This document shows positions 2,251 through 39,583 of a stretch of DNA of 64,000 bases, piece by piece (the stretch's first letter is position 1; the number at the start of each line of letters is the position of its first letter). A program made the translations under genes and the position numbers. The stretch lies in the IMG/VR virus record IMGVR_UViG_2595698399_000001, positions 1-64,000 of that record; one strand, written 5' to 3'. Source of the stretch: a virus (Duplodnaviria; Caudoviricetes). Under the pieces are notes generated by a model. That model worked only from the letters and a program-made list of their open reading frames with translations. It made no database searches and was not told the DNA's origin.

Positions 2251-3816
2251 TTACTGGTTAAACACAACCACCGCTTCTGTGGTCAAGAATGTACCTACTA
2301 CTGAGGCAGCGTTCTCTAAAGCACATCTAGTAACCTTAACTGGGTCAATAATACCTGCCTCAATCATATCAACTAGGTCGCCACTTCTGACATCTACACC
2401 TATTCCTTTAGCAATGTGAGGCTTGTACTCAATTCCGGCATTATTAAGAATAGCCTCTATAGGTGCAATTGCCGACTCTAATACAGAGAGGTATCCAAGA
2501 GAGAATGCGTCTTCTAAGTCTTCGCTTTTATAAGCTCCAAGAACTTCTGCAGATGCATTTGCTAAAGCAACTCCTCCACCTGAAACAATTCCTTCTTCTA
2601 GGGCAGACCTTGTAGCATTAATACTATCCTCTACTCTATCTTGCTTCTCCTTCAACTCACTATCGGACTTTGCCCCTACATAAATAGTAGCTACGCCTCC
2701 TGTTATTCTAGATAACCTTTCTTGAAGGTCTTTCTTATCGAAAGTGTTTTCGGTGATTTTAATCTTCTTTTTAATCTCCTCGATAAGGTCAGATAAGTTA
2801 TCGCTATCTCCTACTAATAAGGTATCTCTGTCAGACATTACTGCCCTTTTAAGTTTGCCTAGTACTCCGGTAGATAATTTAACTCCCTCTACTTCTGAAA
2901 CAACCTTCGCTCCAGTAAGTGTTGCAATATCTCCTAAAAGATCTCTTTCAATCTTAAGAATCTGTGGAGACTTAACTACGCAAATCCTTCCTTTAAGAGG
3001 CCCGTTTGAGTTCTCTACTAAGTTACCTAATGTAACTGGGTCAATATCGTCTGTTATAATCAATAACTTGTTCTTAACAGAGGAGAATACTTGCTTTAGG
3101 AAGTTTGCAGTAACGTCTCCCTTCTCTAACTTACCCTTGTGAAGTAATACAAAAGTGTCCTCTAGCTCACAAACGTCTGTAAGGTTATTAGTCACAAATC
3201 TTGGGTGGTAATACCCTCTATCGAGTACAACACCGTTACGCATCTCTACATAACTTTCCGCTGTATCGGACACTGACGAAATAACTGTACCATTCTCACC
3301 TATCTTACTAAATGCCTTAGATACAATTTCTCCTATAACCTTATCTCCGTTTGCAGAGATAGTAGCGACACTCTTTAAGTTCTTTTTAGAAACTTTAGTA
3401 GAGTTGTTCCTCAACGTTTTAACCAAGTCTTCTACAGCCTTGTCTAGGCCTTTCTTGTACTCTGTTACCGACATATTACTGTCTTCCTTAAGCACTTTAA
3501 AACCTACATTAAATAAGTCTTGAGCTATTACTGTAGCGGTGGTTGTTCCATCACCTGCTTGTGAATTAGCTCTACTTGCAGCCTCCTTAATCATAGACGC
3601 CCCTATATTCTCGAAAGGGTCTTTAGGGGTTACAGTCCTAGCTACAGAGACTCCATCTTTAGTTACAGTATAAACTAATTGTCCATCTTTATTTGCAGGA
3701 ATGATTACATTGCGTCCAGACGCACCGAGAGTTACCTTAACGGCATCTGCAACAGTATCTACCCCTCTTTTAAGCGCCTCTCTTGAATCTAATCCGAACT
3801 TAATTGTTGTACTCAT
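2251..3816 (-). CDS. groEL: phage chaperonin GroEL (Cpn60)
   Basis: AVKVTLG, TKDGVSVA, AGDGTTTATV, EEGIVSGGG, GIIDPVKV motifs; lacks the GGM tail. Confidence 0.97.
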   Translation of the reverse strand: MSTTIKFGLDSREALKRGVDTVADAVKVTLGASGRNVIIPANKDGQLVYTVTKDGVSVARTVTPKDPFENIGASMIKEAASRANSQAGDGTTTATVIAQDLFNVGFKVLKEDSNMSVTEYKKGLDKAVEDLVKTLRNNSTKVSKKNLKSVATISANGDKVIGEIVSKAFSKIGENGTVISSVSDTAESYVEMRNGVVLDRGYYHPRFVTNNLTDVCELEDTFVLLHKGKLEKGDVTANFLKQVFSSVKNKLLIITDDIDPVTLGNLVENSNGPLKGRICVVKSPQILKIERDLLGDIATLTGAKVVSEVEGVKLSTGVLGKLKRAVMSDRDTLLVGDSDNLSDLIEEIKKKIKITENTFDKKDLQERLSRITGGVATIYVGAKSDSELKEKQDRVEDSINATRSALEEGIVSGGGVALANASAEVLGAYKSEDLEDAFSLGYLSVLESAIAPIEAILNNAGIEYKPHIAKGIGVDVRSGDLVDMIEAGIIDPVKVTRCALENAASVVGTFLTTEAVVVFNQ

Positions 3817-9544: not shown

Positions 9545-11437
9545 TTAAAATGGTCTTACTATTGGTTTAAAGTCATCTCCGAACGCATCCTCTGCAGTCT
9601 TCTTAGGTATAGTCTTCTCCTCAGTAACAATTCCTTGTTTCTTTAAAGACTCATACATGGGGTTTCTATTGGAGCTATCGAAGTAGCCTCTGAATCCATC
9701 TACAGTCTTGTAAGATAGAGCTGTAGACTCGCTAGCAGGTGTTATACTACCTCCTGTATCATAATCTTTTATCTTTGCAGACCTTATATCCATCATCCTC
9801 TTTAAGGCGTCTACTTTATGGTTTGTTATCCTATGATACACTAAGAATCCGTCGCATCTGTTAGCAAACATATTTCCTCCGATTGCATCGTAGTGGTATG
9901 GAGCTTTTAGATATCCGTCTTGGTCTCTAGGTGCTCTAGCCGCCTCCGTGTTAGGGTGGACAGACATGAATACCGCCATAACTTTCTTACTGTAAATATT
10001 AAGCCTTGAAAGAAGGTCGTCGTTATAGTTGTAAGTGTTTGCAGCAGGTTTCTTAAAGTATGAGAAAGGGTCGATAAATAGTCCATCTAAATTGTGGAAC
10101 TTATTTAAAACCTCTGCCCTCTTAAGAATATCCTCTACTGAGAAAAACTCTTCGTTTTTAAAGATAAAGAAGTGAGAGTACATGAAGTCTTTAAACACTT
10201 GCAATTCCTTGTCTCTACCTTTATAGTAAGAAATTTGCTTACCGCAAAGGGCCTCTAAAAGGTACCTTTTTACTGTACCCACATCATTTTCTCCGCAACA
10301 TATAGCAAACTTCTTACCGTAAAGGACAGATAGGCCTACTAATTTGTGAAGAACCATGAACGTCTTCCCTACACCTTCAAAGGCGAGTATAAAGTTTAGG
10401 GTCTTCTCTTTAAATACGTAGTACGGATCTAAGTCAGGCCAACCGAAAGATAATCCTAGTGGAATATCACCCGATATGTATTGGTCTAACTTTTCTTCGT
10501 CTTCGCCTGCCCAAGATATAAAGGATAAGTCGCTGTAATCAGTATCGTCGTCTTCCTCGTCTTCTTTAGGTAGGTCTACACCATACCCCATTTTACGTAG
10601 TTGTCTGTAACCTTTAGCAAAATCTCCGTCTGCATTTATAATAGAATAGATTGCAGAATTACTGTAAGGTTTCTCTGTATCGAATCCGGTAGAGGTTGAG
10701 AATACGTAAAGGAAATTGCCATCTAAGTTGTAAGTGGCAGACACACCATATCTTTGTTTGTCCGGCCTCCTTAGGTAGACCCAGTTTGCATCCTCTCTTA
10801 ATACTTCCCAACCTGCTTCTTCAAGTATGTCTAGCCCTATGTCAGGGTCTTCGTTGTACTTTGGGAAGGGGTCTTTAAATTCTCCATCACCGTAAAAGGT
10901 TTTCTTTTCTCTAATCCTTTCGTCGTATGTCTTACAAGTAGTTATAAGTACATTTCTTTCGTAGTTCTCTATAAACTGTATGTCTAGAATATCTCCGTAG
11001 ATAATCTCGTAACCCTCAGACGGATAGCATTTAATATATCCTCCCTGTCCTCTAGTCTCCATTATGACATCTTTATTTGCCTTAGATGCCAATTTCTGAT
11101 TGCCTTCTACTACGGAAGTTCTATACATTAAGTGGTAGCCGCCACTCTTAGTCTTAGCTACTACTAATTTTCTTAATATGTTATCAGGTATCTTAGACTT
11201 CCAATCTTCCCAAACCTCGTCTTGATTCTCTAAGACATCTAAATCCATATCTAGCACCTCAAGTCCTCCTGATACTGAACCCGTACAAATCCCAATCTCT
11301 TGGAAGTCGAACTCTGATAAGTCTTCTCCTATTGGGAGGCCCCAACCTGATATGTTAGGTATTTTATCTCCTTTATTTAGCGGCACGGGGTTTAGGCCCG
11401 CTTTTAAGTAAGACTCTGCTGTTTCTCTGTACGCCAT
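9545..11437 (-). CDS. primase (Prim-Pol/AEP) fused to DnaB/SF4-like helicase
   Basis: LEVLDMD, TKSGGYH, ETRGQGGY (Prim-Pol); AFEGVGKT Walker A, FIDPF Walker B, VHP. Confidence 0.88.
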   Translation of the reverse strand: MAYRETAESYLKAGLNPVPLNKGDKIPNISGWGLPIGEDLSEFDFQEIGICTGSVSGGLEVLDMDLDVLENQDEVWEDWKSKIPDNILRKLVVAKTKSGGYHLMYRTSVVEGNQKLASKANKDVIMETRGQGGYIKCYPSEGYEIIYGDILDIQFIENYERNVLITTCKTYDERIREKKTFYGDGEFKDPFPKYNEDPDIGLDILEEAGWEVLREDANWVYLRRPDKQRYGVSATYNLDGNFLYVFSTSTGFDTEKPYSNSAIYSIINADGDFAKGYRQLRKMGYGVDLPKEDEEDDDTDYSDLSFISWAGEDEEKLDQYISGDIPLGLSFGWPDLDPYYVFKEKTLNFILAFEGVGKTFMVLHKLVGLSVLYGKKFAICCGENDVGTVKRYLLEALCGKQISYYKGRDKELQVFKDFMYSHFFIFKNEEFFSVEDILKRAEVLNKFHNLDGLFIDPFSYFKKPAANTYNYNDDLLSRLNIYSKKVMAVFMSVHPNTEAARAPRDQDGYLKAPYHYDAIGGNMFANRCDGFLVYHRITNHKVDALKRMMDIRSAKIKDYDTGGSITPASESTALSYKTVDGFRGYFDSSNRNPMYESLKKQGIVTEEKTIPKKTAEDAFGDDFKPIVRPF

Positions 11438-26782: not shown

Positions 26783-26805
26783 CTTTATTGTTTTGTGATT
26801 ATTAG

Positions 26806-27164
26806 TGGAGGCGGAGGGAATCGAACCCTCGTCCAGAGCACTTAATCGTTAATGTTTTATACAGCTTTTGCGTAGTATCGTTACACACGGCATTTCTTTA
26901 GACTCTTTATGCTAGAGGGGCCAACCATAGTTATGATTGAAGCTCCACCAAACTGTTTTGAGAAAACAGATAAAACGGTCAGCTTATACCCCTACTGCTA
27001 CTTCAAGGTTAAGGATAGCGTTTACCGCTTCCATATTAGCTTCGATCTGTGCGTTTACCGCATTCGTGTTGTTTCCGTTTAAAGAATTTCACCTTAGTTT
27101 GTGCAGTTATCTCTCTGCGCTGAACATTAACGACTGTTATACCCTGTCAAAACCAGTCGCCCCC
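26806..27164 (-). ncRNA. ssrA: tmRNA (SsrA); predicted tag GNNTNAVNAQIEANMEAVNAILNLEVAVGV* (26984-27076)
   Basis: 5' GGGGGCGACTGGTTTTGACAG, 3' GGACGAGGGTTCGATTCCCTCCGCCTCCA; G3.U70 alanine identity pair; TAAAC|GGA resume context. Confidence 0.92.
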
Positions 27165-28584: not shown

Positions 28585-28604
28585 GACTAGTTTGTATTAA
28601 TTAG

Positions 28605-28676
28605 TACTCTCTATAGGATTCGAACCTATGTTTTTCGGATGAAAACCGAATGTCCTTACCGCTAGACGAAAAGAGC
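28605..28676 (-). tRNA. tRNA-Glu(UUC), copy A
   Basis: GCTCTTT/AGAGAGT, TTCGG-TTTTCAT-CCGAA, ATAGG-TTCGAAT-CCTAT. Confidence 0.9.
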
Positions 28677-30107: not shown

Positions 30108-30554
30108 TTAATATACTTTGCTTATCCTTTCAATAGCTTCTTTACACTCTATCTCTAATGCTAATTTAGAGGCCTCTGTACCCTTCCAATTCGCTGAATC
30201 GTCGTGTATTATTTGAAGGAACTCCCAAACAATTACTGGATAACCTTTATACTCGTCTTTAAGGTATATATCTAATTCGGGTAAAGGCTTGGACTTATCT
30301 ACCGTTGATATCTTTACACCTGCCAATGAGTAAAGACCCCCTCTATTGTTTAACTCCCCATAGTCCAACCCATCTAACATACATCTACCTACAGCGCACA
30401 TTCCTCCGCCTTCTGCACGGTATTTGCAAAAATTAGATCCCTTGCTCTCTACACCCCTTCTACTCAAATCCTCGGAGTAGTATTGTACAGTCTCGTTTAA
30501 CAATCTTACCATGTCTTCTTTAGACCTTGCGGTTTCTACTTTTACTTCTGACAT
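30108..30554 (-). CDS. hypothetical protein, paralog of 31380..31799
   Basis: ETVQYYSEDLSRR...C.Y...G.MCAVGRCM...LQ..HD..NW. Confidence 0.7.
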   Translation of the reverse strand: MSEVKVETARSKEDMVRLLNETVQYYSEDLSRRGVESKGSNFCKYRAEGGGMCAVGRCMLDGLDYGELNNRGGLYSLAGVKISTVDKSKPLPELDIYLKDEYKGYPVIVWEFLQIIHDDSANWKGTEASKLALEIECKEAIERISKVY

Positions 30555-30574
30555 CTCTTAAATTTTAATATTAG

Positions 30575-30646
30575 TACTCTCTATAGGATTCGAACCTATG
30601 TTTTTCGGATGAAAACCGAATGTCCTTACCGCTAGACGAAAAGAGC
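30575..30646 (-). tRNA. tRNA-Glu(UUC), copy B (identical to copy A)
   Basis: Base-for-base identical to 28605-28676. Confidence 0.9.
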
Positions 30647-31089: not shown

Positions 31090-31383
31090 TTATAGACCAG
31101 TTATTTTTATATATTGCTTATACTCTTTTCCGGACTTCTTACTAGTCCTAAGAATGTAGTAACTACCCCTAGTACTTTTATACACGGGGTACTCAACACC
31201 TTTCACGTCCATGGTGTATTTGGTCTTTGTAGCTTCGGATGCAGATTTACCACCTCCTACTTTTACTATTTTGTCACCTTGTACCACATAGGTAGGCTCT
31301 GTACTTTCTTGTGCAGACGCAACTATTGTTACAAATACTAATGTCAGTACTAATATTAACGATAACCTTTTAACTCTTCTCAT
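31090..31383 (-). CDS. secreted hypothetical protein
   Basis: Signal-peptide-like N-terminus (ASA-Q); YPVYKSTRGSYYILRTSKKSGKEYKQY. Confidence 0.6.
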   Translation of the reverse strand: MRRVKRLSLILVLTLVFVTIVASAQESTEPTYVVQGDKIVKVGGGKSASEATKTKYTMDVKGVEYPVYKSTRGSYYILRTSKKSGKEYKQYIKITGL

Positions 31384-31799
31384 AACTCTCCTTTTTCTAT
31401 ATCTGATTTAATTTGATTTAACTTTGCCGACCCCATTCTCGAAAGTCCTCTCCCTTCCCAATTAAGACTTTGGTCATGTAAACTTTGCAGAGACATCCAA
31501 AAGGTCATGTTTACACCTCTGTACTCATCCTTTAAGAGGGTGTCTAATTTCTCATCTTGCTCTTCAACTTCTACATTACGGAATATCTCTAAAGAAGTTA
31601 ATTCGCCCTGTGTGTTAAGGTCTTCAAATGGTGCGTCATCTCGCATACATCTACCCACAGCACACATATTCCCATGAGGAGTCTTGTATAGACACATGAA
31701 GTTTTCGTCGAGCGCCCTTCTACTTAAGTCCTCGGAGTAATACTTTACAGTTTCGTCTAGTATCTGTAGCTTTTTATCCCTTAATGCTTGGTTGTTCAT
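31380..31799 (-). CDS. hypothetical protein, paralog of 30108..30554
   Basis: DETVKYYSEDLSRR...CLY...GNMCAVGRCM...LQSLHD..NW. Confidence 0.7.
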   Translation of the reverse strand: MNNQALRDKKLQILDETVKYYSEDLSRRALDENFMCLYKTPHGNMCAVGRCMRDDAPFEDLNTQGELTSLEIFRNVEVEEQDEKLDTLLKDEYRGVNMTFWMSLQSLHDQSLNWEGRGLSRMGSAKLNQIKSDIEKGEL

Positions 31800-34856: not shown

Positions 34857-35061
34857 TAGTGGTAATTTTATAAAATATGGCACGTACATGGGAATCATTC
34901 GGGGAGTTTTGGTCTGAACTATCAAAAGATCAGAGGACGTACTTAAAAGAGTACATAAATAAGAAAACACGACAGGCCGTCGAACAATATAAAGAAAGTC
35001 TCGAATAACAGCTCGAATACTTTTACTATATTTGCACCTAACACTATAAACATTATAAACT

Positions 35062-35208
35062 ATGATTACATTTTTAGTAGGAGTATTGGCCGGAGCGGCA
35101 GGCTTCGCATTAATCTTGAAGAACAACCCTAAATTACAAGCATATTTCAATAGTGCTGCAGACGAGTTGGAGCGAAAGATTGAAGAAAAAACCGGAAAAG
35201 ACATCTAA
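35062..35208 (+). CDS. small membrane-anchored protein (48 aa, MITFLVGVLAGAAGFALILKNNPK..., YtxH-like)
   Basis: Read manually; upstream TATATTTG box at ~35027. Confidence 0.55.
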   Translation: MITFLVGVLAGAAGFALILKNNPKLQAYFNSAADELERKIEEKTGKDI

Positions 35209-35227
35209 AACAAAAATTATTTACAAG

Positions 35228-35263
35228 TAAGTTTTTTTATATCAAAAAAAAGTTGTATATTTG
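35228..35263 (+). promoter_or_regulatory. tRNA array 1 promoter (repeat copy 1)
   Basis: TAAGTTTTTTTATATCAAAAAAAAGTTGTATATTTG; Bacteroidota -7 box TAnnTTTG; repeated at 36705 and 37947. Confidence 0.8.
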
Positions 35264-35282
35264 TATCAAAGCAATAAGATCG

Positions 35283-35360
35283 ATGAAAACAATTATGAAC
35301 ATAGCGACAGATATTAGAACCAAGGGAGTGAAACTCTTGGGGAGGAGCCGTGTACTATAA
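35283..35360 (+). CDS. attenuator leader peptide 1 (MKTIMNIATDIRTKGVKLLGRSRVL)
   Basis: 16 of the first 17 codons are M/K/T/I/A/D/R/G/V, the amino acids of tRNA array 1. Confidence 0.8.
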   Translation: MKTIMNIATDIRTKGVKLLGRSRVL

Positions 35361-35388
35361 TTTCTTTAGATATAAGATGTTTATTACA

Positions 35389-35415
35389 GCCCTCCCCTAA
35401 AAAGGAGGGTTTTTT
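35389..35415 (+). terminator. attenuator terminator 1
   Basis: GCCCTCC/GGAGGGT stem plus U-run, 3 nt before tRNA-Ala; leader GGGGAGG can pair with CCTCCCC. Confidence 0.85.
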
Positions 35416-35418
35416 ATT

Positions 35419-35493
35419 GGGGCTGCATGAACCAAGGCAAGGCGACTTTGATTTGCAATCAGAGTGAGATGGGTTCGATACCCATGAGTTCCA
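35419..35493 (+). tRNA. tRNA-Ala(UGC)
   Basis: Loop TTTGCAA, GGGGCTG start with G3.U70, ATGGG-TTCGATA-CCCAT. Confidence 0.8.
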
Positions 35494-35521
35494 CAATAAG
35501 ATCCCTTACTGACACCAAATT

Positions 35522-35594
35522 GCCCTTGTAGCAAACAGGTTGTAGGCAACCGTCTTTTAAACGGTGGGGCTAGGTTCGATTCCTAGCAGGGGCA
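35522..35594 (+). tRNA. tRNA-Lys(UUU)
   Basis: ACCGT-CTTTTAA-ACGGT; GCCCTTG/CAGGGGC. Confidence 0.9.
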
Positions 35595-35643
35595 CATAAG
35601 TAAATTAGCTTATATAATGGATTATAAGCGAATAAGGTAATAT

Positions 35644-35716
35644 TGGAGTATAGCTCAGCGGTTAGAGCACTCCCCTGATACGGGAGATGTCGTAGGTTCG
35701 AAACCTTCTACTCCAA
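35644..35716 (+). tRNA. tRNA-Ile(GAU)
   Basis: CTCCC-CTGATAC-GGGAG; TGGAGTA/TACTCCA. Confidence 0.9.
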
Positions 35717-35804
35717 CGAGGCGGAAGACTACCGAAAGAAGGAAAAAGGAAAAAAGTTGGACTAAGAGATTGTTTTTACCTCAACTCTATAAAAAGAGGA
35801 ATTT

Positions 35805-35877
35805 GCGTAAGAGGCCATAGTGGAATGGCGCCTGCCTTCCAAGTAGGAGATAGCGAGTTCGAACCTCGTCTTACGCT
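35805..35877 (+). tRNA. tRNA-Gly(UCC)
   Basis: CCTGC-CTTCCAA-GTAGG; GCGTAAG/CTTACGC. Confidence 0.9.
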
Positions 35878-35887
35878 CTTTTAAAAT

Positions 35888-35956
35888 TGTGGGTGGTCGT
35901 GGTGACCAGAGGGCCTCATAAGTCCTTATAGATGGGTTCGACTCCCATACCCGCCA
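35888..35956 (+). tRNA. tRNA-Met (or Ile2) (CAU), atypical short D-arm
   Basis: AGGGC-CTCATAA-GTCCT; 1:72 mismatch; ATGGG-TTCGACT-CCCAT. Confidence 0.7.
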
Positions 35957-36031
35957 CAAAAGTCGTTTCTACACTCTTCGGGATAAAGGGTGTTCGTACG
36001 ACACTCGGCAGTTAATCGACATCTGCCAACT

Positions 36032-36108
36032 GGTCTAATAAGCGTGTTTGGTAACACGAATTGCACTGTCACTGCTCTAAAACGAGGGTTCGAATCCCTC
36101 TTAGACCG
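36032..36108 (+). tRNA. tRNA-Asp(GUC)
   Basis: GCA-CTGTCAC-TGC; GGTCTAA/TTAGACC, G73; GAGGG-TTCGAAT-CCCTC. Confidence 0.8.
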
Positions 36109-36118
36109 CTTTAATTAT

Positions 36119-36192
36119 GCACTAATGACTGAATAGGAAATGGTACTTCATTTGTAACGAAGATAATTCGGGTTCGACTCCTGATTAGTGCT
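36119..36192 (+). tRNA. tRNA-Thr(UGU)
   Basis: Loop TTTGTAA; GCACTAA/TTAGTGC. Confidence 0.85.
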
Positions 36193-36401
36193 CAACATAC
36201 TTAATCCGCCTATCGAGAAGTTTTGAAGCGCATTAGATTAAGTGTTTTCTGAAAAAGGGGCTTAGCGAATACTAGATATCGTTAACAAAGGCCCCTTTTT
36301 ATTTATCAGGATAAAAGTATTGTAATGGAGTTTTGAGTTATGGAAATAAGCTTCTCCACGTTAAAAACAAAAAAGTAGGTGTAGTAATATGCTTACCATA
36401 T

Positions 36402-36475
36402 ACCAGATTAGCTCAGCGGTTTAGAGCAGCTCTTTTACAAGGAGAAGGTCGATAGTTCGAATCTATCATTTGGTA
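36402..36475 (+). tRNA. tRNA-Val(UAC)
   Basis: Loop TTTACAA; ACCAGAT/ATTTGGT; canonical D-arm. Confidence 0.88.
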
Positions 36476-36536
36476 CGACAGTACCTACCACACTTCTAGG
36501 AGAACGTCTCAAAGTGTCCAAGGGTAGGTCTTTTTT

Positions 36537-36607
36537 ACCTCTATAGTTTAAAGGAAGAATACGGCGCTTCTAACGCTATGGTCGGGGTTCGAATCCCTGT
36601 AGAGGTT
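36537..36607 (+). tRNA. tRNA-Arg(UCU)
   Basis: GGCG-CTTCTAA-CGCT; ACCTCTA/TAGAGGT. Confidence 0.88.
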
Positions 36608-36612
36608 CTTAT

Positions 36613-36683
36613 TGGAGTAAGCCTAGGTAGGTTAGCACGTCTTATATGCGTGTGGAGATGGGTTCGATTCCCTCTATTCCAAC
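36613..36683 (+). tRNA. tRNA-Ile(UAU), atypical D-arm
   Basis: CACGT-CTTATAT-GCGTG; TGGAGTA/TATTCCA; GGTTCGATTCC. Confidence 0.65.
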
Positions 36684-36704
36684 TATTTATAAAATAAAAA
36701 GATA

Positions 36705-36740
36705 TAAGTTTTTTTATATCAAAAAAAGTTGTATATTTAC
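36705..36740 (+). promoter_or_regulatory. tRNA array 2 promoter (repeat copy 2)
   Basis: TAAGTTTTTTTATATCAAAAAAAGTTGTATATTTAC directly before the leader ATG. Confidence 0.8.
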
Positions 36741-36743
36741 AAT

Positions 36744-36833
36744 ATGAAAACAAACATGACATACAATAATTTCTCTTGGTATTCGAATTGTAGCTTTAGT
36801 AGCTATAATGTCGAGAGGTTGTACTTGTCTTAA
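36744..36833 (+). CDS. attenuator leader peptide 2 (MKTNMTYNNFSWYSNCSFSSYNVERLYLS)
   Basis: Codons 7-22 are exclusively Y/N/F/S/W/C, the amino acids of tRNA array 2. Confidence 0.85.
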   Translation: MKTNMTYNNFSWYSNCSFSSYNVERLYLS

Positions 36834-36882
36834 AAATATATTCATTTCTTTTATTAATTTTTGATTATTAATTTTGATTTTT

Positions 36883-36917
36883 ACCCTCTTGGTCTTTCAT
36901 AGCTAGGAGGGTTTTTT
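36883..36917 (+). terminator. attenuator terminator 2
   Basis: ACCCTCTTGGT/GCTAGGAGGGT stem plus U-run before tRNA-Tyr; leader GTCGAGAGG can pair with CCTCTTGGT. Confidence 0.85.
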
Positions 36918-36930
36918 GTTTTTTATAACT

Positions 36931-37012
36931 TGCAACGTAAAGCTAGTGGTTCTAGCAGGCTGTCTGTAAAACAGTTCTTGAGAGGGGAGTGGTTCGATTC
37001 CGCACGGTGCAA
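36931..37012 (+). tRNA. tRNA-Tyr(GUA)
   Basis: GCTGT-CTGTAAA-ACAGT; long variable arm. Confidence 0.85.
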
Positions 37013-37019
37013 CAATAAT

Positions 37020-37109
37020 GGAAGAGTAAGCCAAGTAGGTCTACTGGTCGCTGTCTTGAAAACAGTTGGGGTTTAAAAGCCCGTGTGGGTTCGAGCCCCA
37101 CTTCTTCCG
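37020..37109 (+). tRNA. tRNA-Ser(UGA)
   Basis: GCTGT-CTTGAAA-ACAGT; long variable arm; G73. Confidence 0.9.
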
Positions 37110-37114
37110 CATTT

Positions 37115-37199
37115 AGAGAGGTGTCTGAGTGGCTTAAGGTACTACTTTGCTAAAGTAGTGGGGTTAACGCCTCCGAGGGTTCGAATCCCTTCTTCTCTA
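37115..37199 (+). tRNA. tRNA-Ser(GCU)
   Basis: CTACT-TTGCTAA-AGTAG; long variable arm. Confidence 0.9.
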
Positions 37200-37208
37200 C
37201 AAACACAC

Positions 37209-37280
37209 GGCTAGGTAGCTCAGAGGAAGAGCAGGCGCCTGTTAAGCGTCAGGTCGAGATATCGTAATTCTCCCTAGCCT
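37209..37280 (+). tRNA. tRNA-Asn(GUU), non-canonical T-loop
   Basis: GGCGC-CTGTTAA-GCGTC; GGCTAGG/CCTAGCC; T-loop ATCGTAA. Confidence 0.85.
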
Positions 37281-37287
37281 CTTTAAT

Positions 37288-37359
37288 ATGTCTCAGCATA
37301 AGGTATGCAGTCGGTCTCCAAAACCGTACATGGACAAGGTTCGATTCCTTGGGGGCGTG
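37288..37359 (+). tRNA. tRNA-Trp(CCA)
   Basis: CGGT-CTCCAAA-ACCG; CAAGG-TTCGATT-CCTTG; G73. Confidence 0.85.
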
Positions 37360-37439
37360 CAATAAAACAACAGAGCATCCTATAATGTAAAGGAGCCGCC
37401 ATAAAATCCGAGAGAAGGTCTTGGCTGTTGTTTTTTAAT

Positions 37440-37512
37440 GCGTTAGAAGCTAACTTGGTAGAAGCACTGGCTTGAAATCCCAGAGGAGTAGGTTCGATTC
37501 CTACCTATCGCA
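37440..37512 (+). tRNA. tRNA-Phe(GAA)
   Basis: Loop TTGAAAT in a CTGG/CCAG stem; GTAGG-TTCGATT-CCTAC. Confidence 0.85.
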
Positions 37513-37517
37513 CTTAT

Positions 37518-37589
37518 ATCGGAGATCCTGACGGAGAAGGGGCCTGTCTGCAAAACTGCGCTATACCGGTTCAATTCCGGTCTCCGATT
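37518..37589 (+). tRNA. tRNA-Cys(GCA)
   Basis: Loop CTGCAAA; ATCGGAG/CTCCGAT; U73. Confidence 0.8.
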
Positions 37590-37640
37590 CTTATGTTTGT
37601 ATTTTTCGTACCTTTACTACTTAACGTTAAACAAACAACA

Positions 37641-37934
37641 ATGAGAAGAACTACAAGAAAAACTGTGCCAACTAATAAAACTGCGCCTAAGAAAAACGTA
37701 ACAATCAAATCTGATAAGAGTAGTGTTGCAAGTACCAAGGCTAAAAAATACACTGTTAAGACAAGTGGCAAGCTTAAGAAAGAAGAAGAAGCTAGAGGAA
37801 CTAGGGGTCGTAATGACGCCAATAGATCTGCAGCCTTTAAGAAAGATGTAGAGAAGGCCGGAGGTATGAGTGCATATACTAAGAAATTAACTGATGCAAA
37901 GAAGAGGGTCAAGAAGAATCCAACAAGAATCTAA
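37641..37934 (+). CDS. highly basic Lys/Arg/Thr-rich protein (start probably MRRTTRK)
   Basis: Part of ORF 37593..37934; ATG after A-rich AAACAAACAACA and a TACCTTTA box. Confidence 0.6.
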   Translation: MRRTTRKTVPTNKTAPKKNVTIKSDKSSVASTKAKKYTVKTSGKLKKEEEARGTRGRNDANRSAAFKKDVEKAGGMSAYTKKLTDAKKRVKKNPTRI

Positions 37935-37946
37935 TATAAAACAGTA

Positions 37947-37983
37947 TAAGTTTTTTTATATCAAAAAAAAGTTGTATATTTAC
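37947..37983 (+). promoter_or_regulatory. tRNA array 3 promoter (repeat copy 3)
   Basis: TAAGTTTTTTTATATCAAAAAAAAGTTGTATATTTAC directly before the leader ATG. Confidence 0.8.
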
Positions 37984-37986
37984 AAT

Positions 37987-38076
37987 ATGAACGTAACGCT
38001 ATTACATCAAGAGCCCTTAGAACAACTTCGATTACCATCGAGGGTGCCTTATTATGGGATTGATGAACTATCATAG
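37987..38076 (+). CDS. attenuator leader peptide 3 (MNVTLLHQEPLEQLRLPSRVPYYGIDELS)
   Basis: Codons 5-17 are exclusively L/H/Q/E/P/R, the amino acids of tRNA array 3. Confidence 0.85.
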   Translation: MNVTLLHQEPLEQLRLPSRVPYYGIDELS

Positions 38077-38100
38077 TTTACAACGCACAATATCCTATTA

Positions 38101-38136
38101 AGAGCCCCTTTGGTATAAACCATTGGGGCTTTTTTT
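38101..38136 (+). terminator. attenuator terminator 3
   Basis: AGAGCCCC-TTTGGTATAAACCATT-GGGGCTTT plus U-run 4 nt before tRNA-Pro; leader 38038-38062 is complementary to 38088-38113. Confidence 0.85.
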
Positions 38137-38140
38137 ATTT

Positions 38141-38212
38141 CGAGTAGTGACAAAATTGGCACGTGCCGACCTTGGACGTCGGAGAATGCAGGTTCGATCC
38201 CTGCCTACTCGA
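38141..38212 (+). tRNA. tRNA-Pro(UGG)
   Basis: CCGAC-CTTGGAC-GTCGG; CGAGTAG/CTACTCG. Confidence 0.9.
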
Positions 38213-38221
38213 CTTTGATTT

Positions 38222-38296
38222 GCTATCGTCTTCTAAATGGAATAGGAATCCACCCTTTCAAGGTGTGCAATGCGAGTTCAAGTCTCGTCGATAGTA
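38222..38296 (+). tRNA. tRNA-Glu(UUC), distinct sequence from copies A/B
   Basis: CACC-CTTTCAA-GGTG; GCTATCG/CGATAGT. Confidence 0.88.
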
Positions 38297-38342
38297 CGAA
38301 GGTTGTTTGCTAGTATCTCCCAACAAAGTAGAAACTAGACAT

Positions 38343-38414
38343 TGGAGTATGATGTAACGGTTAGCATGACTGGTTTTGAGCCAGTTCGTCGGGGTTCGAA
38401 TCCCTGTACTCCAT
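38343..38414 (+). tRNA. tRNA-Gln(UUG)
   Basis: ACTGG-TTTTGAG-CCAGT; TGGAGTA/TACTCCA. Confidence 0.9.
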
Positions 38415-38425
38415 CTTATAAGAGT

Positions 38426-38499
38426 CCTCCGTTGCGCCAAATTGGAAAGGCGGTCAAGCTGTGAACTTGATTACATGGGTTCGATTCCCATACGGTTGT
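38426..38499 (+). tRNA. tRNA-His(GUG), mismatched acceptor stem
   Basis: TCAAG-CTGTGAA-CTTGA; ATGGG-TTCGATT-CCCAT. Confidence 0.75.
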
Positions 38500-38538
38500 C
38501 CAACACGGGGTAGTGTCATAATGTCATACCCCTTTTAT

Positions 38539-38621
38539 GCCGGAGTGAGTAAAAAAGAGAATGGCAGATCATTGGGTCTTAGAAACCCAGACTTTTGGGG
38601 GTTCGAATCCCTCCTCCGGTA
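38539..38621 (+). tRNA. tRNA-Leu(UAG), atypical (short variable arm, long D region)
   Basis: TGGGT-CTTAGAA-ACCCA; GCCGGAG/CTCCGGT; A73. Confidence 0.75.
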
Positions 38622-38630
38622 CTTATTAAT

Positions 38631-38713
38631 GCATCCATGGTGGAAAGGGCTATACACTACAGGCTTAAAACCTGTCGCCGAAAGGATTGGGGGTTCGAAT
38701 CCCTCTGGATGCA
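38631..38713 (+). tRNA. tRNA-Leu(UAA)
   Basis: ACAGG-CTTAAAA-CCTGT; long variable arm; GCATCCA/TGGATGC. Confidence 0.9.
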
Positions 38714-38720
38714 CTTTCAC

Positions 38721-38792
38721 ACTTCTATAGCTTAACGGAAAAGCGTTCCGCTACGAACGGATAGATTGGGGGTTCGAATCCCTCTAGAAGTT
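38721..38792 (+). tRNA. tRNA-Arg(ACG)
   Basis: TCCG-CTACGAA-CGGA; ACTTCTA/TAGAAGT. Confidence 0.9.
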
Positions 38793-38800
38793 CTTAAACA

Positions 38801-38832
38801 AAAAAAGCCATCTAATTAAAGGTGGCTTTCTT
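38801..38832. terminator. terminator closing tRNA array 3 (probably bidirectional)
   Basis: AAAAAAGCCATCT-AATTAA-AGGTGGCTTTCTT. Confidence 0.7.
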
Positions 38833-38853
38833 ATTTTCAACTGGTGGTTGGTG

Positions 38854-39006
38854 CTAGGCTAATTTGGATTTGCCCCTAATTTTAAAAGATAGGGCATCCT
38901 TCACCTTGCTATTTTTTCGTTTATAAACTCGAGCAGTCGAATCTTCTTTCTTAGAATCCAACTTACTATTCTTCTTACTTTCTATTTTATGGTCTTTATA
39001 TCTCAT
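38854..39006 (-). CDS. small basic protein (50 aa, MRYKDHKIESKKNSK...IRGKSKLA)
   Basis: Read manually; converges on the 38801-38832 terminator. Confidence 0.4.
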   Translation of the reverse strand: MRYKDHKIESKKNSKLDSKKEDSTARVYKRKNSKVKDALSFKIRGKSKLA

Positions 39007-39583
39007 ATCTTATCTCGGGGCTAGGTTATCTATATTCTATTATATCTATATTTATTATCTAATAATATACTTTAGGTAATCCTCTCTGGATATAGCTTCG
39101 CTAAAGAGTAAAACCCGTTAGAGTGATACAATTTAGACGAAAACATATAACTTAATTTGGTTTAGAAGCTTGCGCTCTTTAGTATAAACCTCCTGTTATA
39201 ATGGGAGCCATAAATGGCGGAGGAATTGCCTCTCTTACTCCAAACACTCCTCAGTGTTCCTTCGCTCGAATAACTATCTTAGCACGCCTATCCTTGGCCA
39301 GAACGATATGTAGCCCGACTAACTACTTCCCTATTCGCTAGGTTCTTTATCTTCGGTACTTAGTTTGAGTAAGTCAAACCCTTAGAAACTCTTCGTATGT
39401 AATATGTTGTAAATATAGTAAAAATAAAGCGTGTATGCAAATATACAAATAATTATTTTATACTTTTTTACCCCCCCCAAATAATTTAATTATGTAAAAC
39501 GCTAATAGTCAACAACTTATAAAATAAATTAAAAATAATTGAAAATAAATTAGGTTTAACAGACTTTATGTACTATCTTTGTA

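What the first reader, a model, noticed from the sequence alone, without database searches (positions are those of the whole stretch)
35283..36683. Attenuator unit 1: leader MKTIMNIATDIRTKGVK matches the Ala/Lys/Ile/Gly/Met/Asp/Thr/Val/Arg/Ile array
The codons ATG AAA ACA ATT ATG AAC ATA GCG ACA GAT ATT AGA ACC AAG GGA GTG AAA match at isoacceptor level: ATT for Ile(GAU), ATA for Ile(UAU), AGA for Arg(UCU), GGA for Gly(UCC), ACA for Thr(UGU), GAT for Asp(GUC), GCG for Ala(UGC), GTG for Val(UAC). Only AAC (Asn) does not fit. The next bases, TTGGGGAGGAGCCGTG (35337-35352), can pair with TACAGCCCTCCCCTAA (35385-35400), which is the terminator's 5' arm.
Basis: partly seen in the sequence, partly recalled or inferred. 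Interest (0 to 1): 0.85.

Follow-up and report, generated by a model that had tools for sequence, protein, structure and literature searches.

The report
Codon-matched attenuator before phage tRNA genes
A marine phage puts a tiny reading frame, spelled almost only in the codons read by the ten tRNA genes behind it, in front of a stop-or-go RNA switch, so the phage probably makes those tRNAs only when decoding of those codons runs slow.

Summary
Window 35231-36683 holds a promoter-like box, a 25-codon ORF (35283-35360), an intrinsic terminator (35388-35415) and ten tRNA genes. Own-array tRNAs read 14 of 16 sensor codons by strict wobble, against 1 and 0 for the other two arrays. It is the only one of 127,900 six-frame 17-residue windows with this composition. 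Folding gives a classical attenuator. A ribosome held on codons 5-14 lets 35339-35348 pair with the terminator's 5' arm (-27.6 against -13.1 kcal/mol). A ribosome at codon 20 or the stop frees the terminator.

Two sibling units in the window (Tyr/Ser/Asn/Trp/Phe/Cys and Pro/Glu/Gln/His/Leu/Arg) work the same way. So do units in Maribacter phage Panino, Cellulophaga phage phi4:1 and several IMG/VR contigs, where peptide order differs but composition and pairing are kept.

A blind sample of phage tRNA arrays turned up unrelated contigs, up to 424 and 635 kb, whose different tRNA groupings are mirrored by their leaders.

Ten literature searches found no description of this. It is best read as ribosome-mediated attenuation applied to tRNA genes, a new variant of a known kind. 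No experiment supports it yet.

The parts
35231..35263 (+). Promoter-like box shared by the three tRNA units. It contains TATATTTG (35255-35262).
   Evidence: GTTGTATATTTR occurs exactly 3 times in the window and 3 times in the whole 72,534-base record, each time just before a leader (0.04 expected by chance). The longer box is seen at 35240-35262 and 37959-37981 and at 36711-36738. The likeness of TATATTTG to the Bacteroidota -7 consensus TAnnTTTG is recalled, not tested. The sigma-70 scan found no more sites than shuffles.
35283..35360 (+). Leader ORF, 25 codons plus TAA: MKTIMNIATDIRTKGVKLLGRSRVL.
   Evidence: It is identical in Cellulophaga phage Calle_1.
35286..35333 (+). Sensor codons 2-17.
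   Evidence: 14 of 16 are read by the unit's own tRNAs under strict wobble and 15 of 16 under relaxed wobble, against 1 of 16 and 0 of 16 for arrays 2 and 3. It is unique among 127,900 six-frame windows.
35320..35340 (+). Region 1:2 hairpin (35320-35326 with 35334-35340), which ties up part of the antiterminator strand when no ribosome is present.
   Evidence: It appears in the MFE fold of 35270-35418, together with the terminator, at -30.1 kcal/mol. That is nearly isoenergetic with the antiterminator fold at -30.4.
35330..35348 (+). Antiterminator 5' strand, over codons 16-22 of the leader.
   Evidence: 35339-35348 pairs with 35389-35397, and 35330-35338 pairs with 35405-35413. The fold is -27.6 kcal/mol with a ribosome masked at codon 12.
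35351..35388 (+). Inner stem-loop of the antiterminator. It spans the stop codon and the spacer.
   Evidence: pair list.
35388..35415 (+). Intrinsic terminator: stem 35388-35395 with 35404-35411, then a T-run at 35410-35415.
   Evidence: -13.1 kcal/mol. Its 5' arm is unpaired only when the ribosome mask reaches codon 20 or the stop.
35419..35495 (+). tRNA-Ala(UGC)-like gene with an aberrant D arm.
   Evidence: Not called by ARAGORN or Rfam. It aligns with the tRNA-Ala genes of Panino, phi4:1, L011 and L068 at the same position.
35522..36193 (+). tRNA genes Lys-UUU (35522-35595), Ile-GAU (35644-35717), Gly-UCC (35805-35878), Met-CAU (35888-35957), Asp-GUC (36032-36109) and Thr-UGU (36119-36193).
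36247..36311 (+). Strong hairpin followed by a T-run, inside the array between Thr and Val.
   Evidence: -22.5 kcal/mol, z -4.1, 0 of 200 shuffles fold as well. Its role is unknown.
36402..36683 (+). tRNA genes Val-UAC (36402-36476), Arg-UCU (36537-36608) and Ile-UAU (36613-36683).
   Evidence: The Ile-UAU gene scores 23 bits in Rfam.
36699..37590 (+). Sibling unit 2. It has the box, the leader 36744-36833 (MKTNMTYNNFSWYSNCSFSSYNVERLYLS), a terminator at 36883-36917 and the tRNAs Tyr, Ser, Ser, Asn, Trp, Phe, Cys.
37949..38835 (+). Sibling unit 3. It has the box, the leader 37987-38076 (MNVTLLHQEPLEQLRLPSRVPYYGIDELS), a terminator at about 38096-38137, the tRNAs Pro, Glu, Gln, His, a Leu-UAG-like gene, Leu-UAA and Arg-ACG, and a final terminator at 38804-38829.

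Best explanation
Unit 1 is a ribosome-mediated (leader-peptide) transcription attenuator that gates a ten-gene tRNA array of a Callevirus-like Cellulophaga phage.

Proposed sequence of events:
1. Transcription starts at the box at 35231-35263.
2. A ribosome translates the 25-codon leader.
3. If decoding of the codons for Lys, Thr, Ile (ATT and ATA), Met, Ala, Asp, Arg (AGA), Gly or Val is slow, the ribosome lingers on codons 2-15.
4. Strand 35330-35348 then stays free and pairs with the terminator's 5' arm as that arm emerges. RNA polymerase runs on into the tRNA genes.
5. If decoding is fast, the ribosome reaches codons 17-25 or the stop and covers that strand. The hairpin at 35388-35411 plus its T-run then forms and the transcript ends.

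The sensor codons are the ones read by the tRNAs downstream, so the loop is negative feedback on the supply of those tRNAs. The array is made on demand. The window carries three such units, which together cover all 20 amino acids.

Shown here: the sequence features, the codon-to-anticodon match, the alternative folds and their conservation.

Inferred: translation of the leader, coupling to RNA polymerase, the direction of the response, and the physiological trigger.
For: Match.
- Own-array tRNAs read 14 of 16 sensor codons, against 1 of 16 and 0 of 16 for the other arrays. The 3x3 table is diagonal for all three units (U2 16 of 21, U3 11 of 16).
- The unit 2 and unit 3 runs (16 and 13 residues) are the longest runs of their amino-acid sets in all six frames of the 64 kb, and the only ones listed that hold all six amino acids.
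- The unit 1 window is unique among 127,900.

Switch.
- In 8 of 8 units (3 in the window, 2 in Panino, 3 in phi4:1), the nascent transcript pairs the terminator 5' arm with the 3' end of the ORF while the ribosome mask sits at codons 5-14.
- The arm is fully or largely unpaired with the mask at the stop: 0 arm bases stay paired in six units, 4 of 11 in window unit 2 and 6 of 19 in window unit 3.
- The energy gain beats all but 0-7 of 300 dinucleotide shuffles.
- For unit 1 the antiterminator is -27.6 and the terminator -13.1 kcal/mol.

Promoter box. There are 3 copies in the whole genome, all before leaders.

Conservation with reshuffled order.
- Unit 1 leaders: MRAATGIAIIGRTKDK... (Panino), MRTVTGIAIIGRTKDK... 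(L011), MNTVTGMAIIGRTKDK... (L068) and ..TKTGITVIDKTKGARA.. (phi4:1).
- Unit 2 and unit 3 leaders occur in L072, L073, L105, L076 and L068.

Isoacceptor level.
- Arg is AGA 7 of 7 times in unit 1 leaders.
- Arg is CGA, CGC, CGC or CGT in the unit 3 runs.
- Both Ser boxes appear in unit 2, and both Leu boxes in unit 3.

Covariation across unrelated arrays.
- The sample was 119 IMG/VR loci. 257 upstream regions in 112 of them were tested.
- The own-set score is in the top 0.5% of 200 swapped tRNA sets for 11 regions, where 1.3 are expected.
- Example: FEHEFFAAERAAAEFAAAAFEAF lies before Glu/Ala/Phe genes.
- 11 of 11 units examined have a hairpin plus U-run, and 8 of 11 have a significant antiterminator.
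- A 634,780-base phage record shows the same design.

L069 has the upstream small membrane-protein gene and a terminator, but no leader and no array.
Against: - No experiment shows translation of the leader or regulated termination.
- Each sensor codon occurs only 1-3 times. Classical attenuators mostly use runs of one codon, so sensitivity to shortage of a single tRNA is uncertain.
- The Ala gene is not recognised by ARAGORN or Rfam. AAC is foreign to the array and ACC needs relaxed wobble.
- With the 5' UTR included, the unconstrained MFE is the terminator form (-30.1), against the antiterminator form at -30.4 without it. The resting state is therefore ambiguous.
- Full-length MFE folds did not show an antiterminator for units 2 and 3. 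Only nascent-transcript folds did.
- A strong terminator-like hairpin (36247-36311) separates Val, Arg and Ile-UAU from the rest of the array, although their codons are in the leader.
- L086 and L088 keep unit-2-type leaders but have only one called tRNA behind them.
- Panino's unit 1 leader has two AGA codons, but no tRNA-Arg(UCU) is annotated or called there.
- 3 of 11 unrelated units lack a significant antiterminator.
- Most sampled phage tRNA arrays show no leader signal. 237 of 257 regions fall outside the top 5%. The Klebsiella, Pseudomonas and Bacillus phage arrays checked had none.
- RNA-library contigs bridge the unit 1 terminator. If these are RNA, read-through is common under those conditions.
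Confidence: 0.8

Rival explanations
1. The machine is the same, but the input is different. The attenuator reports amino-acid starvation or poor charging in the host rather than tRNA abundance, and so works as a general growth-state sensor for the phage.
For: A leader peptide cannot tell a missing tRNA from an uncharged one (established for the trp and his attenuators; recalled). The three units together cover all 20 amino acids.
Against: Making more tRNA does not relieve amino-acid starvation, so the exact unit-by-unit match of leader to its own array would have no purpose. That match includes the Arg isoacceptor split and the diagonal table. Unrelated phages re-create the match for quite different groupings.
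Confidence: 0.2
2. The leader is translated but acts by another route. Examples are changing processing or stability of the precursor, or Rho access, with the hairpin serving as a processing or stability element rather than a regulated terminator.
For: The hairpins with T-runs inside the arrays show that such elements also occur where no leader is present. RNA-library contigs cross the unit 1 terminator.
Against: The hairpin has a canonical T-run. The conserved feature is the mutually exclusive pairing of the ORF's 3' end with the terminator's 5' arm. It is found in 8 of 8 related units and 8 of 11 unrelated units. That pairing is what a termination switch needs.
Confidence: 0.08
3. A chance ORF sits next to an ordinary terminator or insulator that merely separates the upstream gene from the tRNA genes.
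For: In Panino, L011 and L068 the leader directly follows a small membrane-protein gene. In L069 that gene is followed by a plain terminator.
Against: The unit 1 window is unique among 127,900. The three units give a diagonal codon table. Composition is conserved while residue order changes. The swapped-set control gives 11 regions against 1.3 expected.
Confidence: 0.03
4. The short ORFs encode small peptides that function as peptides.
For: Some are annotated as hypothetical proteins in public records, namely PANI_CDS0063 and Phi4113_075.
Against: Residue order is not conserved while composition is. The C-terminal part is dictated by RNA pairing. Composition follows the neighbouring tRNA genes.
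Confidence: 0.03

Closest known systems
Multivalent leader-peptide attenuators of enterobacterial ilvGMEDA (ilvL) and thr (thrL) operons (recalled from textbook knowledge)
   Same: A short ORF mixes several kinds of regulatory codons. It has 1:2, 2:3 and 3:4 alternative hairpins and an intrinsic terminator. A ribosome stalled on the regulatory codons favours the antiterminator.
   Different: The regulated genes here are tRNAs, not biosynthetic enzymes. The sensor spans 9 amino acids (6 in the sibling units), each with 1-3 codons. The element is phage-borne. No Rfam leader family matches, even at E up to 1.
trp, his, leu and pheA leaders, and the pheM leader of the pheST synthetase operon (recalled)
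   Same: The mechanistic class is the same. pheST shows that a gene of the translation apparatus can be under leader-peptide control.
   Different: Those sense one amino acid through a run of one codon. None controls tRNA genes. Here the product, a tRNA, is itself the molecule that is sensed.
T-box riboswitches
   Same: Both use a terminator/antiterminator switch that reads tRNA status upstream of translation-related genes.
   Different: A T-box binds the tRNA directly through a specifier codon and a conserved T-box sequence, without translation. No T-box or any other cis-regulatory Rfam family matched 35000-39500 above chance. Here an ORF does the reading.
Phage tRNA clusters without known leaders (T4-like Klebsiella phage Roth19, Pseudomonas phage PA5oct, Bacillus phage Thrax1)
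   Same: They are arrays of many tRNA genes in a virulent phage.
   Different: No codon-matched ORF lies upstream of them. Their best region E-values were 0.07 to 1.1.

Membership tests
Ribosome-mediated (leader-peptide) transcription attenuator | Short ORF upstream, enriched in codons tied to the regulated product | tested here: met
   14 of 16 codons are read by the unit's own tRNAs. The window is unique in the 64 kb.
Ribosome-mediated (leader-peptide) transcription attenuator | Intrinsic terminator between the leader ORF and the regulated genes | tested here: met
   Hairpin at 35388-35411 plus a T-run.
Ribosome-mediated (leader-peptide) transcription attenuator | Antiterminator mutually exclusive with the terminator, with its 5' strand overlapping the ORF's 3' end so that ribosome position decides the fold | tested here: met
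   0 of 300 shuffles do as well. This is prediction only.
Ribosome-mediated (leader-peptide) transcription attenuator | The leader is translated and termination responds to stalling | not testable with these tools
   RNA-library contigs cover the region, but they cannot show ends, strand or level.
Ribosome-mediated (leader-peptide) transcription attenuator | Regulated genes are amino-acid biosynthesis, transport or synthetase genes (all classical members) | tested here: not met
   Only tRNA genes lie downstream. It is therefore filed as a new variant, not as a member of any described leader family.
Rfam leader families (Trp, His, Leu, Thr, Phe leaders and others) | Match to a curated covariance model | tested here: not met
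   No leader family appears among the matches at E up to 1 for 35000-39500, or at gathering scores for the whole window.
T-box riboswitch | Specifier loop and conserved T-box sequence (Rfam T-box model) | tested here: not met
   No match.

The most novel reading that the evidence does not exclude
Phages of several lineages, from 70-kb flavobacterial podophages to contigs of 424 and 635 kb, turn each tRNA array into a self-regulating, demand-driven module. A leader peptide is written in the array's own codons. It senses depletion of exactly those tRNAs, for example by host shut-off or by host anticodon nucleases, and then releases transcription of the replacements. This would be the first case of tRNA genes controlled by translation of their own cognate codons. 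It would also be a built-in reporter of which tRNAs a phage expects to lose.
Probability: 0.55. Interest if true: 0.92.

Novelty: new variant of a known kind. Interest (0 to 1): 0.87.

Why it matters
Why phages carry tRNA genes, and when they use them, is an old question. Codon-usage compensation, host tRNA decay and escape from tRNA-cleaving defences have all been proposed.

A sensor written in the array's own codons says that the phage measures decoding capacity and answers with tRNA synthesis. That gives a concrete prediction for each unit, testable in cultured systems: Cellulophaga phages of the Calle and phi4:1 groups, and Maribacter phage Panino.

It extends leader-peptide attenuation from metabolic operons to tRNA genes. 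It offers a way to find functional tRNA groupings in metagenomic phages. It also supplies compact, codon-specific sensors that could be reused as reporters of tRNA supply.

Tried and rejected
Searches that gave little or nothing.
- Exact-pattern scans of IMG/VR for the unit 1 antiterminator found little. One search gave 63 stretches, of which only 2 have a tRNA within 200 bases. One search gave the same 2.
- A DNA pattern from the unit 3 leader start found only phi4:1's own copy.
- tblastn with the Panino unit 3 peptide found only itself.
- The profile of the small membrane protein found 2 relatives among 586 pattern hits.

Candidate leaders rejected.
- Four 27-28-codon ORFs (MKTNLLLELSLIQEHPQQ..., in L075, L081, L091 and L096) were rejected. 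The one I read (L075) lies inside a longer coding region with no terminator. No tRNA follows within 2.5 kb in any of the four.
- L117 is a 141-residue protein with a distant tRNA call and was also rejected.
- In the prokaryote-genome sample, L354 and L254 ranked high but have no credible ORF or terminator.

Methods that did not work.
- Low-threshold ARAGORN on the Ala-like and Leu-UAG-like genes gave inconsistent calls. The same happened for a tRNA-like stretch in Panino.
- Full-length MFE folding with ribosome masks did not show an antiterminator for units 2 and 3. I replaced it with folding of the nascent transcript cut before the terminator's 3' arm.
- The sigma-70 promoter scan gave 7 sites against 8.6 in shuffles.
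- The MAFFT alignment of five unit 1 leaders (A3) is shifted in the terminator region, so I did not count pairs on it.

RNA libraries.
- Only assembled contigs were available, and depth cannot rank parts.
- Short high-depth contigs over the unit 3 leader (37962-38060 and 37962-38065) against lower-depth array contigs are no more than a hint.
- Stretches without cover, and contig ends near 36270-36320, are not evidence.

- Supplements of PMC8776804 (annotation tables) could not be seen. They might list the small ORFs.
- The structure, complex and protein-homology tools were not used, as they have no bearing on the question.
Full report
WHAT IS THERE. The window is bases 1-64000 of a 72,534-base virus record. 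Over the unit 1 region it is 99.3% identical to Cellulophaga phage Calle_1 (Pervagoviridae, Callevirus). Over 36610-39000 it is 95.5% identical. At 35283 an ORF of 25 codons starts, MKTIMNIATDIRTKGVKLLGRSRVL, with its stop at 35358-35360. It follows a 33-base box (35231-35263) and precedes a hairpin with a T-run (35388-35415).

Ten tRNA genes follow. Lys-UUU, Ile-GAU, Gly-UCC, Met-CAU, Asp-GUC, Thr-UGU, Val-UAC and Arg-UCU are called at default settings. Ile-UAU is called only at a relaxed threshold. An Ala-UGC-like gene at 35419-35495 is called by no program, but it aligns with the annotated tRNA-Ala genes that hold the same position in four relatives.

IS IT MORE THAN CHANCE. Under strict wobble, the unit's own tRNAs read 14 of the 16 codons after the start codon. 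Under relaxed wobble they read 15 of 16. The tRNAs of the window's other two arrays read 1 and 0. Among 127,900 17-residue windows in all six frames, this is the only one with at least 16 residues from the nine-amino-acid set and all nine present.

The window holds two more units of the same build, each behind a copy of the box. The core GTTGTATATTTR occurs three times in the whole genome and nowhere else.
- Unit 2 leader: MKTNMTYNNFSWYSNCSFSSYNVERLYLS, before Tyr, Ser, Ser, Asn, Trp, Phe and Cys genes.
- Unit 3 leader: MNVTLLHQEPLEQLRLPSRVPYYGIDELS, before Pro, Glu, Gln, His, Leu, Leu and Arg-ACG genes.

Their runs of 16 and 13 residues are the longest for their sets in the whole window, and the only ones listed with all six amino acids. 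The leader-by-array codon table is diagonal: 14/1/0, 4/16/0 and 2/1/11. Together the three sets cover all 20 amino acids.

THE RNA SWITCH. I folded the nascent transcript, cut just before the terminator's 3' arm, with the stretch under a ribosome masked.
- With the A site at codons 5-14, all 8 bases of the unit 1 terminator 5' arm are paired with the 3' end of the ORF.
- At codon 17, 4 of 8 are paired. At codon 20, 1 of 8. At the stop, 0 of 8.
- The pairs are 35339-35348 with 35389-35397, extended by 35330-35338 with 35405-35413. The energy is -27.6 kcal/mol, against -13.1 for the terminator alone.
- No dinucleotide shuffle of the intervening sequence (0 of 300) sequesters the arm as well.
- Without a ribosome, two folds are nearly equal. 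One is the antiterminator (-30.4). The other is a 1:2 hairpin (35320-35326 with 35334-35340) plus the terminator (-30.1). This is the four-region layout of classical attenuators.
- Units 2 and 3, and five units in two distant phages, behave the same way: 8 of 8, with 0-7 of 300 shuffles as good.
- Full-length MFE folds did not show this for units 2 and 3, so the case for them rests on co-transcriptional logic.

RELATIVES. Maribacter phage Panino and Cellulophaga phage phi4:1_13 are different genera, the latter with a 146-kb genome. Both carry the same three tRNA groupings, with leaders of the same composition but different order.
- Unit 1: MRAATGIAIIGRTKDKPLGRISVL (Panino) and, from a GTG start, QLTKTGITVIDKTKGARAYLGDTVIG (phi4:1).
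- Unit 3: MKTQRLHQELEQP... and MKIQRLHLQELEQP...
- Unit 2: MKTNYCTYNNSNWSFSY....

IMG/VR contigs add more: unit 1 in L011 and L068, unit 2 in L072, L073 and L105, and unit 3 in L076 and L068.

Over the first 18 codons of these leaders, the codon choices follow the isoacceptors.
- Arg is AGA 7 of 7 times in unit 1, where the arrays carry tRNA-Arg UCU.
- Arg is CGA, CGC, CGC or CGT in the unit 3 runs, where the arrays carry tRNA-Arg ACG. One AGG lies in an antiterminator strand.
- Unit 2 uses both Ser boxes (15 TCN, 8 AGY), and its arrays have two tRNA-Ser genes.
- Unit 3 uses TTA (7) and CTN (6), and its arrays have two tRNA-Leu genes.
- ATA occurs in 4 of 5 unit 1 leaders.

The antiterminator sequences differ between units and phages, but the pairing is kept.

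Counter-examples also exist. L086 and L088 keep a unit-2-type leader and terminator but have only one called tRNA behind them. Panino's unit 1 leader has two AGA codons with no called tRNA-Arg UCU. L069 has the upstream membrane-protein gene and a terminator, but neither leader nor array.

UNRELATED PHAGES AND CONTROLS. I fetched 119 IMG/VR loci using only a pattern of three tRNA T-loops. For every gap of at least 100 bases before three or more tRNA genes, I scored the best stop-free segment rich in the amino acids of those tRNAs. That gave 257 regions in 112 loci.

Against 200 swapped tRNA sets per region, the own set ranks in the top 0.5% for 11 regions, where 1.3 are expected. Below the top few per cent the distribution is flat: 28 regions against 25.7 expected at 10%. 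I examined ten of those 11 regions plus one more, L218 at 12919, which ranked in the top 1%. The eleventh top-0.5% region, L218 at 5968 (set Ala/Gly), was not looked at. The 11 units examined lie in seven contigs with quite different groupings.
- L197 (a 424-kb contig): MTMNVFEHEFFAAERAAAEFAAAAFEAF... before Glu/Ala/Phe genes. MTYVMNTNNTNPNNNP... before Asn/Pro/Thr/Tyr. ...RRDGRGFGKHDKDR... before Asp/Arg/Lys/Gly.
- L202: MKTNTVNINVITITNCVNNTT... before Asn/Ile/Val/Cys/Thr. ...PQPMQDQD... before Gln/Pro/Asp.
- L218: ...ETYYYEAYEE... before Glu/Tyr. ...RTMNLNITNLNLT... before Leu/Arg/Asn/Thr/Cys.
- L178, L201, L158 and L136: one unit each.

All 11 units I examined have a hairpin plus U-run. 8 of 11 have an antiterminator better than all but 0-6 of 200 shuffles. 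L178, L218 at 4400 and L201 do not.

A 634,780-base uncultured phage record (LR745206) has ...SYESYYEE... before Glu/Tyr genes. Arrays of Klebsiella phage Roth19, Pseudomonas phage PA5oct and Bacillus phage Thrax1 show nothing.

In 120 prokaryote-genome loci fetched with the same pattern, I tested 125 regions in 97 loci. Three regions reach the top 0.5%, where 0.6 are expected. By eye only one is convincing. It is ...TYCSSSYCY... plus a terminator before Cys/Ser/Tyr genes, on a 12,953-base contig of a Bacteroidota MAG (L298). That contig may be viral.

So the design is a minority among phage tRNA arrays, but it recurs, and the leader follows the array.

RNA LIBRARIES. Nine RNA runs hold part of the stretch, and five hold most of it. 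Only assembled contigs could be laid, for four runs from two studies. They cover the region, and some bridge the unit 1 terminator: X2 at 35310-35735, X3 at 35228-35735 and X5 at 34990-36270. If these are RNA, read-through transcripts exist. Contigs cannot show ends, strand or level, and DNA carry-over was not excluded.

MECHANISM. Best reading: ribosome-mediated attenuation with negative feedback on tRNA supply, as set out under Best explanation. I put this at 0.8.
- Shown: the parts, the codon-to-anticodon match, the alternative pairings, and their conservation and covariation.
- Inferred: translation, coupling, the direction of the response and the trigger.

The likeness of TATATTTG to the Bacteroidota -7 consensus, and the weak use of Shine-Dalgarno sequences in that phylum, are recalled, not tested.

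COMPARISON AND NOVELTY. It works like the multivalent ilv and thr attenuators. It is not a member of any described leader family (no Rfam match), and it fails the feature that all of them share, a metabolic or synthetase target. It is not a T-box.

Ten full-text searches listed no paper on leader ORFs or attenuators before phage tRNA genes. For these I saw listings and abstract starts only. In passages of PMC8776804 (Calle) and PMC11590407 (Panino), found with the terms tRNA, tmRNA, attenuat and leader, the tRNA genes are only counted. Subscription journals are largely outside the library, so an earlier description cannot be excluded.

CAVEATS. All structure evidence is predicted. My unit borders in the blind sample are set by gap lengths, so prevalence is a rough lower bound. 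Three loci failed in my script and were dropped (L124, L139, L246). The related flavobacterial-phage units probably share ancestry, so they count as conservation, not as independent inventions. Independence rests on the unrelated contigs.

Noticed in passing
window 36247-36311, 37366-37439, 38507-38537: Each of the three arrays has an internal hairpin followed by a T-run between two of its tRNA genes. The unit 1 hairpin is -22.5 kcal/mol, with 0 of 200 shuffles as good. The other two are weaker, with 7 and 10 of 200 shuffles as good. They could be partial terminators or processing signals. tRNAs whose codons are in the leader lie beyond them.
   Followed up: partly
window 26805-27164 (-), 28604-28676 (-), 30574-30646 (-): The phage encodes a tmRNA (Rfam 87.6 bits) and has two further tRNA-Glu(UUC) genes with equal scores on the other strand, outside the three units. 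They sit next to paralogous ORFs (30108-30554 and 31380-31799). No leader search was done for them.
   Followed up: no
window 35718-35804: The 87-base spacer between tRNA-Ile and tRNA-Gly falls in the bin with by far the highest summed contig depth in three RNA runs. It has no special fold (z -0.03). Depth from contigs is unreliable, so this may or may not be a stable RNA.
   Followed up: partly
window 35062-35208 (+); L002:4269-4418; L011:2730-2870; L068:4001-4144; L069:4001-4126: A conserved gene for a small protein of about 48 residues, with a hydrophobic N-terminal half (read as a membrane protein by eye), lies directly upstream of the unit 1 leader in several phages. In Panino, L011 and L068 the leader follows it with no copy of the box in between. 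In the window a box lies between them. In L069 the gene is present without leader or array.
   Followed up: partly
window 37623-37934 (+): A lysine-rich basic protein gene sits between unit 2 and unit 3. It is annotated as a structural protein in Calle_1 (Calle1_30).
   Followed up: no
L218 (IMGVR_UViG_3300032294_002710) about 5808; L197 leaders: L218 carries a tRNA with a CTA anticodon, a possible amber suppressor, within its arrays. All three L197 leader ORFs end in TAG. Stop-codon recoding in these large phages could change where the leaders end.
   Followed up: no
L298 (JBCCQN010000225.1, MAG Bacteroidota, 12,953 bases) about 3600-3790: A GTG-started short ORF (...KTYCSSSYCYPAIRERNVFLRE) plus a terminator lies before Cys, Ser and Tyr tRNA genes on a contig binned as bacterial. 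It is either a phage contig in a bin or a cellular example of the same design.
   Followed up: partly
L240 (LR745206.1) about 10990-11150: A second candidate leader (...MKNLNNISIAVIGNGAGAIREWLSYGI) lies before Ile, Gly, Met and Gly tRNA genes in the 635-kb phage record. It was seen in a frame translation only.
   Followed up: no
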